DNA of 63,138 bases, the filler included, from Octopus bimaculoides (Eukaryota): NCBI RefSeq assembly GCF_001194135.2. It is 5 parts of 4 records of this genome, joined end to end, with 100 filler letters (N's around TTAATTAATTAA, not from the genome) between each part and the next. Parts side by side here need not be neighbours in the genome. Positions count along the whole stretch, not along the records: positions 10,730 to 21,875 come from NC_068983.1; positions 21,976 to 53,275 come from NC_068989.1; 3 more parts are not named here. The stretch is one strand, 5' to 3'. The notes under the pieces are model-generated. The model was not told where the DNA came from. It did no database searches and saw only the letters and a list, made by a program, of their open reading frames with translations. Positions 21,354 through 42,073 of the stretch are shown here, piece after piece. The translations under genes were made by a program, and so were the position numbers. How positions within the stretch are numbered: position 1 is the stretch's first letter; each line of letters starts with the position of its first letter.

Positions 21354-21401
21354 GTCTCTGATAAAGGGATATCCCTAATATCCCCGAAACAGCTGTAAGA
21401 C
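21354..21401 (+). ncRNA. Minimal type I hammerhead ribozyme motif (PLE type), G8>A core variant
   Basis: GTCT-CTGATAA-A-GGGATAT-cccta-ATATCCC-C-GAAA-CAGCTG-TA-AGAC: helix I GTCT/AGAC, 7-bp helix II, palindromic helix III ACAGCTGT. Confidence 0.7.
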
Positions 21402-22977
21402 TACCTTTCTCTTTATAAATGTCCTATAAATTCCACACAGCCTTGCTTTTGTTGTCTCATTTTATTTGATACACACAAAGATAATCCGGATCTCGACTGA
21501 AGAGAGAAAACTCCGAATGACCTGTCCTTGTTTTCTTTGTATCGTCTATCTGGAGGTTTTGTTGTCCCTTTTTTGTATCACCTAACTGTCTGCATGTTTT
21601 GTGTTCTTGTCCCATTTTTGTATTTTATATATATATATGTATATATATATACTCATAAATATACAGGGATTAGCATGAGTTACTTCTCCAACATACTGAA
21701 CATTTAGAAATAGCAGTCAAAGAACTACTGATTCCAAACTACAAATTTTTTTCTCTAACGGATGGCGATATTTATGGCACACTGAACTACTGAACTACTT
21801 GGCAAAATTGTTAATTATTAATTTTATTACTAATTGACGATTCCCTGCCCTATATCTGTATATATATATATATATNNNNNNNNNNNNNNNNNNNNNNNNN
21901 NNNNNNNNNNNNNNNNNNNTTAATTAATTAANNNNNNNNNNNNNNNNNNNNNNNNNNNNNNNNNNNNNNNNNNNNGGGGGGGGGGGGGGAAACACAAACA
22001 CACATACATACAAACAGCAGGCTTCTTTCAGTTTCCATCTACCAAATCCAGTCCCACGTCTTTGATCAGCCTGAGGCTATAGTAGAAGACACTTGCCCAA
22101 GGTACCAGGTAGTGGGACTGAACCTGGAACCATCTGGTTGAGAAGCGGGTTTCTTACCACGCAGCCATGCTCGATATAAGGACAGATTTAATGTAACCTA
22201 TAAAGCACTCTTCTTCTTGAAAGATATAAACATCATCATCATTTAATGTTCACTTTCCCATGCTTGCATGGATCAAATGGAATTCATAGATGCAGATTTT
22301 CTGTAACTAGATGCCTCTCTTGTTATCAACATTCACTTGTTCCCAAGCAAGGTAATATTCCTCCCTGGCCGAACACATTTACACAGAAAATTAGACACCG
22401 CTTAAATCACTTACAGCTATCATATGTTTGTTTACATTAAGTGGTAATATTTATCTCCACTTAAATACGGATGTTCTGTTAGAACAAACTATACTGTGGT
22501 AGATGACATGAGAAAAACTCACATATTGGTTTTGGTGCAAAATGCACTCCTGTTTATATCACTAGTGGGGAGACAAATCCCCACCACCTCAAGCACTGAG
22601 ACCATCTGATCATGTGATTTCAACCTTCCTTGATCTTGTCAATGATGGATACTCTAGTGCTAGAGATAGCAGCAATTCATCTCCCCACCAGCAATATACA
22701 GAACAGGACTAAGGAATACACACACAAACATACATACAAACATGCATACATACATATACGATGGGCTTCTTTTCAGTTTCCATCAACCAAATTCATTCAC
22801 AAGACAAGGCACTTGTCCATGGTGCTGCACAGTAGGACTGAACCTAGAACCAAAAGCTGCAAAGTGCATTTCTTAACCACATACGTATGCCTGTACCATA
22901 AAGTATGTTCTTATCTATATATCTAAAACATCAACATGTTTACAAAAACAAAGATGGCTACTTTATATCATTTTCAG

Positions 22978-23004
22978 ATATAGGATTCCTTCAACCGGCT
23001 TCAG
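22978..23004 (+). CDS. Candidate 27-nt (or 21-nt) frame-preserving microexon
   Basis: tcattttcag|ATATAGGATTCCTTCAACCGGCTTCAG|gtaaat; alternative AG at 22982-22983 gives a 21-nt exon (DSFNRLQ). Confidence 0.3.
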
Positions 23005-23361
23005 GTAAATAAAATTCCATTGTTTCTGGCAACTGGTTCTGAACTAACAGAGTCTATAATGATGCTAATGGTGTTAAGTGTTATAAGTTTCTAGTTGTTA
23101 TTTCCATCCCTGTTACCGCCTCCATATGTATATTTTAGGCGATGTTGTTGTTCTTCCTGATTAATGTATTCATCTCAAACACATGACCATGAAATAAATT
23201 ACAACACAAACAAGAGAAAATGCCTCATTAATGTATCACTTTCACAGAAACAAATATATATTGTGTTTTAAATAAAACTACTTAATGTTAGTTCTGTTAT
23301 TCACACACATGTTTGTAGATACACTTTTATGCACACATATACACACATGAATACATATATA

Positions 23362-23475
23362 CAAGGTGGTATTGAATAGATCCTGGTTTTAAGGGTATTA
23401 CGAAAGGCCTGGTTGGAGGCATAACTACCCATATTTTTATTTATCCACAGCCAGGAACTTTTCAGCACCTCCTCG
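23362..23475. mobile_element. Short mariner-derived MITE
   Basis: Ends caaggtggtattgaatagatcctgg / ccaggaacttttcagcacctcctcg; same family as 51864-52073. Confidence 0.6.
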
Positions 23476-23537
23476 TGTGTGTGTGTGTGTGTGTATATAT
23501 ATATATATATATATATATATATATATACATATATATA

Positions 23538-39085: not shown

Positions 39086-39138
39086 AAGCCTGATGAGCCA
39101 GGTTTCTTTAATGAGCCTGTGAAGCTTTAAGTTGCATG
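39086..39138 (+). ncRNA. Degenerate hammerhead motif downstream of a PLE-like C-terminal relic
   Basis: aagc-CTGATGA-gccagg..cctgt-GAAG-ctttaag-TT-gcatg. Upstream frame DREP..FR..ESILVCK resembles a GIY-YIG C-terminus. Confidence 0.45.
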
Positions 39139-40879
39139 GAGCCAGCTCAAACTGTTATTAAATAATACATGCATACTACATACATATACACATATATTTC
39201 TATATGTAAGTGTGTATGTATGCATGTATGTATATATATACATGTATATATATACACACACACATGCACAAATATATATAAATACACACACACACACACA
39301 TATATATACATACGTATACATATGCATATACACACATTATTTCTCAAGCTCAGTCAACAATATAATATAGTATTGACATAAGAAAAGAAAGTCTATTTAG
39401 CTCACTTCAGTGGTGTCTATAGTAGGCTGTAATAATGAGTCATAGAAAACTTCTTATTCCAGATAGCCTCATTGAATTACTGCGCTGATGACAAACTAAA
39501 GCAAAGTGCCGACAAACACAATAATAATGGATAGTTCTTGTCTGTGTTAAACCACAGGTTGATCTTGATTGAGCAAATACATGATCAAAAGCCTTCCGAT
39601 TATGATGATGTTACATTATTGATACTGATTTATCAACTACAACATCGTAGCTATCTTTACTATTTTAACCCCAGGCCAGCCTTGATTAAGAAAACTTATA
39701 AAAAGTATTCAAGCTATGGCCACTTTGTCTATTTTGATTTACTGTTTTTTACCTTTTTACAAAAATAGTGTACATCAACATCATCATCATTGTTGTCAGC
39801 ATTGTCATTGTCTCCACATTCATTTTTACATGCTTGCATAGGTCACATGGCATTTGCTGAGAGACACCCTTCCTCTTCCTATCTCTCACTTATTTACTAG
39901 CAAGGTAGGATTTCCACATGACTAGGCATACTTCCACAGATGATTTGAAGTGAATGCACTATTAGTATGACAATAACACACTTATTACAACTACCATGGT
40001 TGTGTCAACATCTGATGAGTCCAGATTTCACCAAGGTCAATTCAATATTTCATATACCCCAAGGTTGATAAAATTAGCACTTGTAGTATATAGTAACATT
40101 GATTCTTCTGACTGCGCACACCTCAACTAGAAAAATTGGCAGCGTGTCCAGCTAAGGGAAATCAATACAAGAGTACATGTATGGTTCATCAATCGTCTAC
40201 ACTCTAGCCTTGTGAGAAAAGGTCAGTGTAAGGGTCACTCAGTTCGTTTTTAATGACCGCAAGGAATGAGCATGTATGTACACTGATTAATCTACATTCT
40301 ATAAATAATTGGTTAACTTTCCATAGAAAAATTCATCAATGTATTTGCTGGCAGATAAGGTATAAGATGCACTTTCACATAAGATTTGTTACCTTACAAG
40401 TGAATTTTTGGGAAAAAGAACAGATTTAATAGGAATACTTGAATACATCTAGGCAGGTTCAGGCACAAAATAAGCTAGTTGCTGTAATTATGTCAAAGGG
40501 GAATAAAACTTCTCAATGGTGCAGAGGATTCTAGGACACTGCTGTTTTAAAATGTTGTGTTGCATGAGCCAGAAGTACCTGCCCAGACCTTTGAGCCAAG
40601 CCAAGCAGCTGGCCTTTGTTTATACTTTGAAGTAAAATTGCTGTCTTCCATACATACAGGCTTAAAAAGTACTCCCACCAGTGCTGTGTTAATGCACCTG
40701 TCCCAGTGCTGTGCTAATGCACTTGTGCCAGTGCTGTGTTAATGTACCTGACGTGATGCTGTGTTAATGCACCTGTATCGGTGCTGCATAAACACACATG
40801 TGACGGTGATACATAAAAAAATCACCCAGCACACTCTGTTGAGTGGTTGGCATTAGGAATGGCATCCAGCCGTAGAGAA

Positions 40880-41663
40880 ACTCTTTGTGAATGCTGGGCT
40901 GGTGTGCTTTCTTTGCACATGGCTGCAGCGTCTGACTATTGGCACTGCTACCAGAAGATTGCTTGTGTTTCCCACAGGAAGAGCTGGCCTTGATCTTTTC
41001 CTCAAACTGGATAGCATACGCTGGGTGTTTCCTCTTAACATGTGACTTGAAGTTATATAGGCTCACCGCTTGTCCCTTGATGGTGGTCTTGGGCTGGCAC
41101 ATGACACACCGGAGGTACAGGATTTTGGCATTCCTCTTATCCCTTGACGTAAAGACAAAGTAGTCCTCCAGGTGGGGCCACGGGTTCTGAGACCCCTGGC
41201 TCTCAACTTGGGCGACCTGTCTCACCCACAGCTATTGCAGACTCCTCAGTAGGCCCTTTCATCCTCAGGCCAAACAAAAAACGTTTTCACTTTTCATAAC
41301 GATAAGCGGTAACTTGATAAGCCACTAACATTCACTGTTGTCACTGACACTGTAAGACAGTCTCTAATGTGACATCATCGTAAGTGAACAAAACTCAAAA
41401 CTTCAGAATTACACAATGTTACTCAGCCAGTTGCTGCTGCGTCGACTAATCACGTCTTGTCATGTGTACATGTTGTCAGCCAATAGTGTGCCTGATGGAC
41501 TCTTCAAGACACATCCACAGACAGGAACAAACGTATGAATTTTGTAAGCAGAACTAAATTTAGCAGAAGCTAATTGGTCCACTAAGTTTCCAAAGTTAGC
41601 AAAAACACTAATCTGCTAAATGAAAGTTAGCTTTGCTAATTCGTGGAACCATGCCCACCACTG
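40880..41663 (-). mobile_element. hAT transposon 5' end with BED zinc-finger ORF, 3'-truncated
   Basis: Terminus CAGTGGTGGGCA at 41663 with subterminal gctaac repeats. ORF PWPHLEDYF..CVMC..NFKSHVKRKHP..QPSI. Confidence 0.85.
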
Positions 41664-41992
41664 GTTTAGAGTGACTCAACATTAGTAACTTGGTATAATG
41701 AAATGGAATGGATCATGCAGGCTGTTTTTAAAATAAACCAAGTTGATATTATTAATCACACAGAGAAGAGAAAACATATTACTATGTAAGAAAATGAGAC
41801 AACAAACGAATAAACAATTATCTTACGAACTTCATTAGCTTACAACTGTTTTGTCCATAAGATGCAGTGGACTCATAGTTAGGTGCCTGAACAACATCTT
41901 ATAGCTTTATCGGATCCTCCCAATAAGAAAGCCAATACAGGTGTGTATAAAAATATAATTCTTTTCCCAAATGAACTGCACTTCATATTCAA

Positions 41993-42073
41993 GGCTCTGA
42001 TGAAGCTATAAGGTGCTATTCAGGCACTCAACTATGAGTCCACTGCATCGTATAGCAGAAACAGCTGCAAGTT
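41993..42073 (+). ncRNA. Hammerhead ribozyme motif (U16.1>C variant) in the right arm of an inverted duplication
   Basis: GGCT-CTGATGA-A-GCTATA-40nt-TATAGC-A-GAAA-CAGCTG-CA-AGTT. Confidence 0.7.

What the first reader, a model, noticed from the sequence alone, without database searches (positions are those of the whole stretch)
21354..42073. Family of minimal hammerheads sharing the self-complementary helix III ACAGCTGT: possible dimer/trans-cleaving network
Seen: three loci (21354+, 32305-, 41993+) carry CTGAT(G/A)A...GAAA-CAGCTG-(T/C)A with different helix II inserts (21, 56 and 54 nt). About seven further relics occur (near 1215, 21497, 25445, 28341, 33512, 39086, 55213), roughly one motif per 6 kb. 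Established: Penelope-like elements and retrozymes carry minimal type I hammerheads whose short palindromic helix III needs dimerisation. Inference: because the palindrome is identical across loci, transcripts from different loci, or defective copies plus an intact one, could pair and cleave in trans inside host introns. I know of no description of this specific cephalopod family, but could not search.
Basis: partly seen in the sequence, partly recalled or inferred. Interest (0 to 1): 0.75.

Follow-up and report, generated by a model that had tools for sequence, protein, structure and literature searches.

The report
Decayed Hydra-clade Penelope hammerheads in octopus
The three motifs are real hammerhead-ribozyme sequences, each a worn tail end of a different repeat family, two of which trace to Penelope-like jumping genes and the third likely does; they likely share their short palindrome by common descent, not because they form a cross-cutting network.

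Summary
The three motifs are present, with inserts of 21, 56 and 54 nt; none occurs in 100 shuffles. Each belongs to a different dispersed repeat family, and about 2,200 perfect-core motifs of the group occur genome-wide (0 in reversed controls). Family 1 is the 3' end of a Penelope-like element (RT, GIY-YIG, long UTR, hammerhead; 10 of 14 chosen loci) with Hydra-clade marks. Family 2 links to the same nuclease (5 of 25 loci). Family 3 was not linked. Published Hydra hammerheads of anemone, coral and acorn worm carry the same ACAG/CUGU arms, so the palindrome is likely inherited. The window copies are damaged (G8A, 17-nt deletion, U16.1C), lie on two chromosomes and decay like their flanks. 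Helix I differs between families, so cross-family dimers are predicted unfavourable. None of the seven 'relics' belongs to this group. No host gene, locus-specific reads or read ends at the cut site were seen. One new detail: several families spread with a U4C core, which is predicted to remove a self-locking misfold. This scan has reported octopus Hydra hammerheads before, on other DNA, including this genome.

The parts
21324..21467 (+). Family F1 fragment: 5'-truncated 3' end of a Hydra-type Penelope-like element
   Evidence: 97.9% to family consensus over 144 nt; 1824 first-look candidates in the genome; family traced to RT and GIY-YIG
21354..21401 (+). Hammerhead 1: helix I GTCT/AGAC, core CTGATAA (G8A, breaks C3-G8), 7-bp helix II, GAAA, ACAGCTGT, site GUA
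   Evidence: G at this position in 74 of 81 F1-type copies
32040..32601 (-). Family F2 fragment, older, about 80% to consensus
   Evidence: 68 first-look candidates; Hydra-type nuclease remnant upstream on the same strand in 5 of 25 loci
32303..32387 (-). Hammerhead 2: core letters intact, 17-nt deletion removes part of the 3' strand of helix II, helix I eroded
   Evidence: its predicted fold is not a hammerhead
41951..42164 (+). Family F3 fragment, downstream arm of a head-to-head inverted pair
   Evidence: 93.5% to consensus; 2791 first-look candidates
41993..42073 (+). Hammerhead 3: core CTGATGA, 54-nt branched helix II, GAAA, ACAGCTGC (U16.1C breaks A15.1-U16.1)
   Evidence: T at this position in 25 of 30 F3 copies
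41787..41929 (-). Inverted F3 partner (5' inversion typical of Penelope-like insertions); dead core CCGATAA, GAAA damaged
   Evidence: I21; E=5.5e-12; the pair folds into one long hairpin, -150.5 kcal/mol
55215..55250 (-). Relic of another abundant family (F4): minimal hammerhead with CG-type helix III and A6U core; not part of the ACAGCTGT group

Best explanation
The three motifs are damaged, truncated ends of three repeat families that likely all descend from one octopus branch of Hydra-clade Penelope-like retrotransposons, whose 3' hammerhead is predicted to cut the element's own RNA only as a same-family dimer. Shown: F1 is the 3' end of an RT plus GIY-YIG element; F2 has a related nuclease upstream; copies sit at (TA)n, often as head-to-head pairs; helices I and II covary across families while GAAACAGCTGTAAG stays fixed. 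Inferred: in the active parent, tandem terminal repeats put two hammerheads on one transcript, the 8-nt palindromes pair, the helix I strands swap between the two copies, and cleavage after GUA frees a unit-length RNA. The palindrome likely changes slowly because one substitution breaks two pairs in the dimer, so sister families keep it. After insertion the copies likely decay neutrally. The window copies are predicted inactive or nearly so.
For: RT thumb and/or nuclease, UTR and hammerhead lie in order on one strand in 10 of 14 loci chosen for carrying the nuclease. Pfam GIY-YIG hit, E=8.3e-6, in 1 of 7 pieces. CxCX5C linker, CxxC..E..N..CxH, KDHK and YRDD motifs fit the Hydra description and alignment of PMC8557442. 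F2 nuclease remnants in 5 of 25 loci. Inverted pairs in 12 of 30 F1 and 7 of 25 F3 loci; 19 of 22 close opposite-strand pairs are divergent. Covariation: 7 of 13 pairs change on both sides, score 0.354 against 0.162 in shuffles and at most 0.141 when slid (13 hand-picked, related rows, so indicative only). Mismatch rate in CAGCTG equals that of the flanks: F1 0.080 vs 0.077/0.086, F2 0.143 vs 0.149/0.187, F3 0.089 vs 0.097/0.111. With helix III left free, 62 of the first 100 of 1432 matches read CAGCTG, 38 carry 1-3 substitutions, and none is another perfect palindrome. ACAG/CUGU arms occur in 4 of 26 published Hydra rows, and 19 of 26 have the extra base on both sides of helix II. The monomer helix III costs +1.4 kcal/mol; the intermolecular duplex gives -11.1.
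Against: F3 was not linked to a coding region (no upstream hit in 25+30 loci), so its parentage rests on shared motif architecture and insertion pattern. Clade placement is by motifs and by eye; no tree was built, and no copy reached the 5' RWK/DKT motifs. Pfam found no RT in the pieces tried. GAAA is better kept than the flanks in all three families (0.040, 0.083, 0.025), which may reflect its A-richness or hit selection but was not tested. Direct tandems, needed for a cis dimer, were seen rarely (L081, L236). No cleavage was measured. Family RNA reads cross the predicted cut site with no pile-up of ends.
Confidence: 0.85

Rival explanations
1. Trans-cleaving network: transcripts from different loci pair through the shared palindrome and cut each other inside host RNAs, and this is maintained by selection.
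For: The 8-bp helix III duplex is the same for any two intact copies (-11.1 kcal/mol). About 2,200 perfect-core motifs exist. Family-like sequence is present in RNA-seq (235, 256 and 199 reads in about 12 million records per run). A same-family intact-plus-defective pair is predicted stable (-8.4).
Against: Cross-family helix I has only 2-3 bp; window cross pairs are +2.9 to +9.7 kcal/mol. There is no copy-level conservation of the palindrome. Unique parts of 39400-43450 have zero or near-zero read depth in 3 RNA runs of one study. No read-end pile-up. PLE hammerheads cleave slowly even as cis dimers (PMC4209133). Locus 3 would be masked by its own inverted partner.
Confidence: 0.04
2. The hammerheads of this branch were already vestigial or non-cleaving in the spreading parents and were kept as a structural element (for example for RT binding or dimer-aided template jumping).
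For: F3, F2 and a fifth family spread largely with a U4C core, a change reported to lower activity in vitro (PMC3088659). F4 has A6U in 12 of 12 copies. Helix II inserts reach 54-73 nt. Most Naiad and Chlamys elements spread without canonical hammerheads (PMC8557442).
Against: The remaining core letters and the UH site are fixed across otherwise unalignable families. F1 keeps U4 (80 of 81 copies). U4C still supports viroid infectivity.
Confidence: 0.08
3. Non-autonomous retrozymes or SINE-like circles unrelated to a coding element.
For: Most copies are short and non-coding; F3 has no linked ORF.
Against: No 150-400-nt tandem arrays at these loci; pairs are inverted; F1 and F2 run on into Penelope-type coding sequence, with 5' ends at variable positions.
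Confidence: 0.03

Closest known systems
Hammerheads of Hydra-clade Penelope-like elements (Craig et al. 2021, PMC8557442, File S2: Penelope-1_NV, Hydra-1_aMil, Penelope-1_SK, Penelope-2_SK; Hydra-1_oBim)
   Same: Sense-strand 3' type I hammerhead behind RT and C-terminal GIY-YIG; extra base on both sides of helix II; helix III arms ACAG/CUGU in 4 of 26 rows; (TA)n insertion; 5' inverted copies.
   Different: No nucleotides between the arms (perfect 8-nt palindrome; the four published rows have 2-nt loops); inserts of 54-73 nt in F2/F3 against loops of 3-10 nt; U4C cores; about 1.2 kb or more of UTR before the hammerhead, element over 3.4 kb. The published octopus family has ACCA-A-TGGT and is a different family, also present here (L162).
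Metazoan PLE hammerheads with small palindromic helix III (Cervera and de la Pena 2014, PMC4209133; Lunse et al. 2017, seen only as cited in PMC6765202)
   Same: Type I, helix I of 3-5 bp, long helix II, palindromic helix III, thousands of dispersed single copies and opposite-strand pairs 100-700 bp apart, proposed dimer cleavage.
   Different: No cephalopod term found in the one supplement file searched; this group has the extra base before GAAA and a 6-nt insert, not the minimal 2-nt form.
Metazoan non-LTR retrozymes (Cervera and de la Pena 2020, PMC7229834)
   Same: Type I hammerhead; axolotl HHR_Amex2 has a 2-bp plus tetraloop helix III and a U.U mismatch at the base of helix II, and cleaves far better as a dimer.
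   Different: Retrozymes are short non-coding tandem arrays with loop 1-loop 2 contacts that yield circles; these are dispersed truncated ends of coding elements.

Membership tests
PLE-type type I hammerhead | Core CUGANGA, GAAA, UH | tested here: met
   Met by family consensus and 43 of 81 F1, 4 of 21 F2, 3 of 30 F3 copies. Window locus 1 (G8A) and locus 3 (U16.1C) fail individually; many F2/F3 copies have U4C.
PLE-type type I hammerhead | Helices I and II supported by compensatory change | tested here: met
   3 of 4 helix I pairs and 4 of 7 helix II pairs change on both sides; 85.5% of cells paired (13 selected rows)
PLE-type type I hammerhead | Short palindromic helix III, unstable as monomer | tested here: met
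   +1.4 kcal/mol as hairpin, -11.1 as duplex (prediction)
PLE-type type I hammerhead | Lies in the terminal repeat of a PLE, sense to the ORF | tested here: met
   F1 10 of 14 chosen loci; F2 5 of 25; F3 0 of 55, so open for F3
PLE-type type I hammerhead | Self-cleavage as a dimer | not testable with these tools
   Needs in vitro assay; ordinary RNA-seq showed no end pile-up
Hydra clade of PLEs | RT followed by C-terminal GIY-YIG nuclease | tested here: met
   Order on one strand; YRDD RT pieces; PF01541 E=8.3e-6
Hydra clade of PLEs | CxCX5C linker; CxxC and CxH around conserved E and N; no CCHH | tested here: met
   CNCRPGTIC and CKLCLKE..LLN..CNH read against the text; absence of CCHH judged by eye
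Hydra clade of PLEs | N-terminal RWK and DKT motifs | tested here: inconclusive
   All copies examined are truncated or interrupted before that region; the neighbouring KDHK motif matches Hydra rows, not the PKIHK of most other clades
Hydra clade of PLEs | Insertion at (TA)n | tested here: met
   F1 and F3 consensus ends run into (TA)n; not counted per copy
Hydra clade of PLEs | Placement in the clade on an RT tree | not tested
   No tree built; pairwise 44% (E=3e-22) and 31% (E=1e-14) to another Hydra-like ORF of this genome
Non-LTR retrozyme | Non-coding tandem repeats of 150-400 nt, one hammerhead per unit | tested here: not met
   No such array at the loci; 0 of 30 F1 and 0 of 25 F3 loci have only same-strand repeats; F1 and F2 link to ORFs
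Rfam hammerhead families | Match to a curated model | tested here: not met
   No hammerhead among the 150 listed of 152 matches at E<=5

The most novel reading that the evidence does not exclude
This octopus branch has a built-in monomer lock: the CAG of the palindrome pairs back onto the catalytic C3-U4-G5 (predicted probability 0.85-0.94), so cutting needs a partner. At least three families fixed U4C, which removes the lock (0-0.04) and favours the dimer by 2.6-5.6 kcal/mol at a catalytic cost. These would be natural tuned variants of a dimer switch, and intact copies could still cut dead same-family copies in trans.
Probability: 0.15. Interest if true: 0.6.

Novelty: new member of a known kind. 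Interest (0 to 1): 0.27.

Why it matters
As it stands this is transposon debris of a described kind, and the octopus already has a published Hydra hammerhead. The value lies in the family series: one fixed palindrome with helix II inserts from about 21 to 73 nt or more, different helices I, and U4 or C4 cores, all from elements that spread. That is a ready panel for the open question of whether Penelope-like elements need their hammerhead to cut, and of what sets partner choice in double hammerheads (here predicted to be helix I, not the palindrome).

Tried and rejected
Rfam scan: only microsatellite-driven miRNA noise. Host gene: 149 of 152 entropy-filtered frames of 62 aa or more scanned with Pfam; one hit above cut-off, a transposase piece; short exons would be missed, so intron location stays open. 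Run search: no RNA holder listed on record; three same-species-label raw RNA runs from one study were laid, about 6% of each. They look unstranded, and none of the reads on the F1 copy was 99% alike, so strand and source locus cannot be told. First attempts to find the F1 ORF hit unrelated neighbours (L008, L082), and I first took an internal microsatellite for the 5' end, corrected. One search used the wrong frame and (phage records) found nothing. Lunse et al. 2017 and the Terminon paper were not held; they may list octopus motifs or mixed-dimer tests. Supplement file 1 of PMC4209133 was not searchable. Convergence on the palindrome was set aside because F1 and F2 nucleases share their C-terminal end (FYHKSKC) and all three share the AG after the cut site. 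The window's 36994 GAAACAGCTGT has no upstream core. Searches for a published description or a trans network gave none for this group.
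Full report
Observation. The window is a pack of five stretches. The three motifs are at 21358-21397 (+), 32382-32308 (-) and 41997-42069 (+), with inserts of 21, 56 and 54 nt, and none appears in 100 shuffles. Locus 1 lies on contig C3, loci 2 and 3 on C9. Locus 3 reads ACAGCTGC, so the palindrome is not identical at all three. Rfam lists no hammerhead among 150 shown of 152 matches at E<=5. 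The genome is octopus-like: a motif at L162 nearly matches the published Hydra-1_oBim hammerhead.

Three families. Each locus belongs to its own dispersed repeat: F1 1824, F2 68 and F3 2791 first-look candidates, of which only the best 40 were scored. Consensus sequences from 30, 25 and 25 loci share the two core halves, one unpaired base on each side of helix II, and GAAACAGCTGTAAG; outside these they barely align. Exact genome counts are 1448 for inserts of 18-48 nt (U4 only) and 738 for 49-79 nt (U4 or C4), with 0 in reversed controls, about one perfect core per Mb. The listed matches show many more subfamilies. Other hammerhead families in the fetched loci use other helices III (CGTACG, CCGG, CCTAGG, CCAATGG, CG); a descriptor found 73 motifs in 0.70 Mb of enriched loci against a mean of 1.0 in shuffles.

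The window copies are damaged. Against family consensus, locus 1 has G8A, locus 2 lacks 17 nt of helix II and is about 80% identical, and locus 3 has U16.1C. That G8A without a change at C3 and a broken 15.1-16.1 pair impair catalysis follows from passages of PMC3088659 and general knowledge. Locus 3 has an inverted partner at 41787-41929, and a read-through RNA would fold into one long hairpin.

The parent element. Walking upstream from F1 crossed a pyrimidine-rich UTR and an internal microsatellite and reached a nuclease and an RT. I fetched 14 of the 30 nuclease loci, chosen for long coverage or a known downstream motif. In 10 of them coding part, UTR and hammerhead lie in order on one strand; 3 have an inverted terminal copy at the 5' end; L236 has two hammerheads in direct tandem. 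One of 7 pieces hit Pfam GIY-YIG and none hit an RT family. The protein shows KDHK, YRDD, CNCRPGTIC and CKLCLKE..LLN..CNH, fitting the Hydra section and alignment of PMC8557442. RWK and DKT could not be reached and no tree was built. F2 has a related nuclease end upstream on the same strand in 5 of 25 loci. F3 had none in 55 loci.

Why the palindrome is shared. File S2 of PMC8557442 lists 26 Hydra hammerhead rows: 4 have arms ACAG/CUGU around a 2-nt loop, and 19 have the extra base on both sides of helix II. The octopus form closes that loop to zero. Across families helices I and II covary (13 selected rows), which points to selection on the active parents. Among inserted copies the palindrome decays like its flanks; with helix III free, 62 of the first 100 matches are intact and none is a new perfect palindrome. 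GAAA is better kept than the flanks, which I did not explain.

Mechanism. Inferred from the double-hammerhead model described in PMC4209133: helix III forms between two copies, and each core cuts the other copy's UH site, so helix I also forms between partners. Helix III alone does not discriminate (-11.1 kcal/mol for any intact pair), but helix I falls to 2-3 bp across families. Relative to two monomers, F1:F1 and F3:F3 gain 8.9 kcal/mol and F2:F2 3.7; cross-family pairs give +1.3, -3.0 and -0.8; window cross pairs +2.9 to +9.7. F2 is the weak case: its consensus helix I has an internal mismatch, and F1:F2 is about as good as F2:F2. Close pairs of copies are mostly on opposite strands and divergent (19 of 22), so they cannot supply two sense ribozymes on one RNA. 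These are nearest-neighbour predictions without tertiary contacts.

Expression. On an intact F1 copy at 85% likeness 235, 256 and 199 reads were laid; depth continues across the predicted cut site and no end pile-up is listed. Fragmented cDNA libraries are poor at showing such ends. Around locus 3, depth is confined to repeats, with 99% of reads running on unlike the stretch. No host exon was found.

A detail not found in print. In a genome-wide pattern for F3, the first 100 of 135 matches read CTG 50, CCG 27, CCA 20, CTA 3 at core positions 3-5 (my count from the listing). CCA needs a CCG ancestor, so roughly two thirds likely descend from U4C parents. A sample found by upstream sequence gave C in 18, T in 8 and A in 1 of the 27 hits that cover the position (my count). 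F2 has C in 11 of 21, a fifth family in 5 of 6, F1 in 0 of 29. The CTG at locus 3 may itself be CpG decay, since its partner has CCG. U4C is predicted to abolish pairing of the core's CUG with the palindrome's CAG. One paper search for U4C gave only PMC3088659, on a viroid variant; a search of earlier findings gave none.

Papers seen. PMC4209133: first two of four parts of the text and parts 1-2 of supplement file 2. PMC8557442: passages, section 11, supplement searches and parts 2 and 57. PMC6765202, PMC7761336, PMC7229834, PMC3088659, PMC13282606: passages. Lunse 2017: not seen, cited through a review.

Verdict. Real motifs, known kind. The Hydra link was reached, before the word search showed 140 earlier scan findings on the same theme. 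The network reading is unlikely (about 0.04). Interest 0.27.

Noticed in passing
window 55215-55250 (-); L079, L101, L152, L153 and others: Abundant family F4 has a minimal hammerhead whose core reads CTGTNGA: A6 is replaced by U in 12 of 12 copies counted. Not linked to an ORF here.
   Followed up: partly
window 28345-28385 (+) and 33515-33560 (-): Hammerhead-like relics with other helices III; each folds better than 197 of 200 shuffles, and no relative was found among the fetched loci.
   Followed up: partly
window 21470-21600 (+): Tail of another repeat family abutting the F1 fragment; its CTGAAGA is followed by GAAT, not GAAA.
   Followed up: partly
window 9480-9689 (-): Decayed Hydra-type RT thumb remnant (E=4e-6 to the F1 parent protein).
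   Followed up: no
window 43013-43086 (-): Lone 74-nt piece of the F2 3' tail without a hammerhead.
   Followed up: no
L246:7960-9249 (+): Open Hydra-like RT-thumb-nuclease frame of about 430 aa next to an assembly gap, from a family other than F1; possibly a young copy.
   Followed up: partly
L077 about 1500-1750: Three short direct repeats of the F3 5' half-core (about 66 nt unit) ahead of a full copy, suggesting repeated template jumps.
   Followed up: no
window 23985-24495 (-), 40767-41231 (-), 50014-50550 (+), 37105-37521 (-): Other transposon remnants: a mariner-type transposase (Pfam hit), a zinc-finger frame, and frames resembling a Tigger-type transposase and a gag zinc knuckle (the last two labels recalled, not from a call).
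   Followed up: no
window 61007-63138: Degenerate (GAAC)n-type satellite of about 530 units fills the last stretch.
   Followed up: no
window 55840-55936 (-): Weak U6 snRNA-like match, 22.5 bits, E=0.31, below the gathering score.
   Followed up: no
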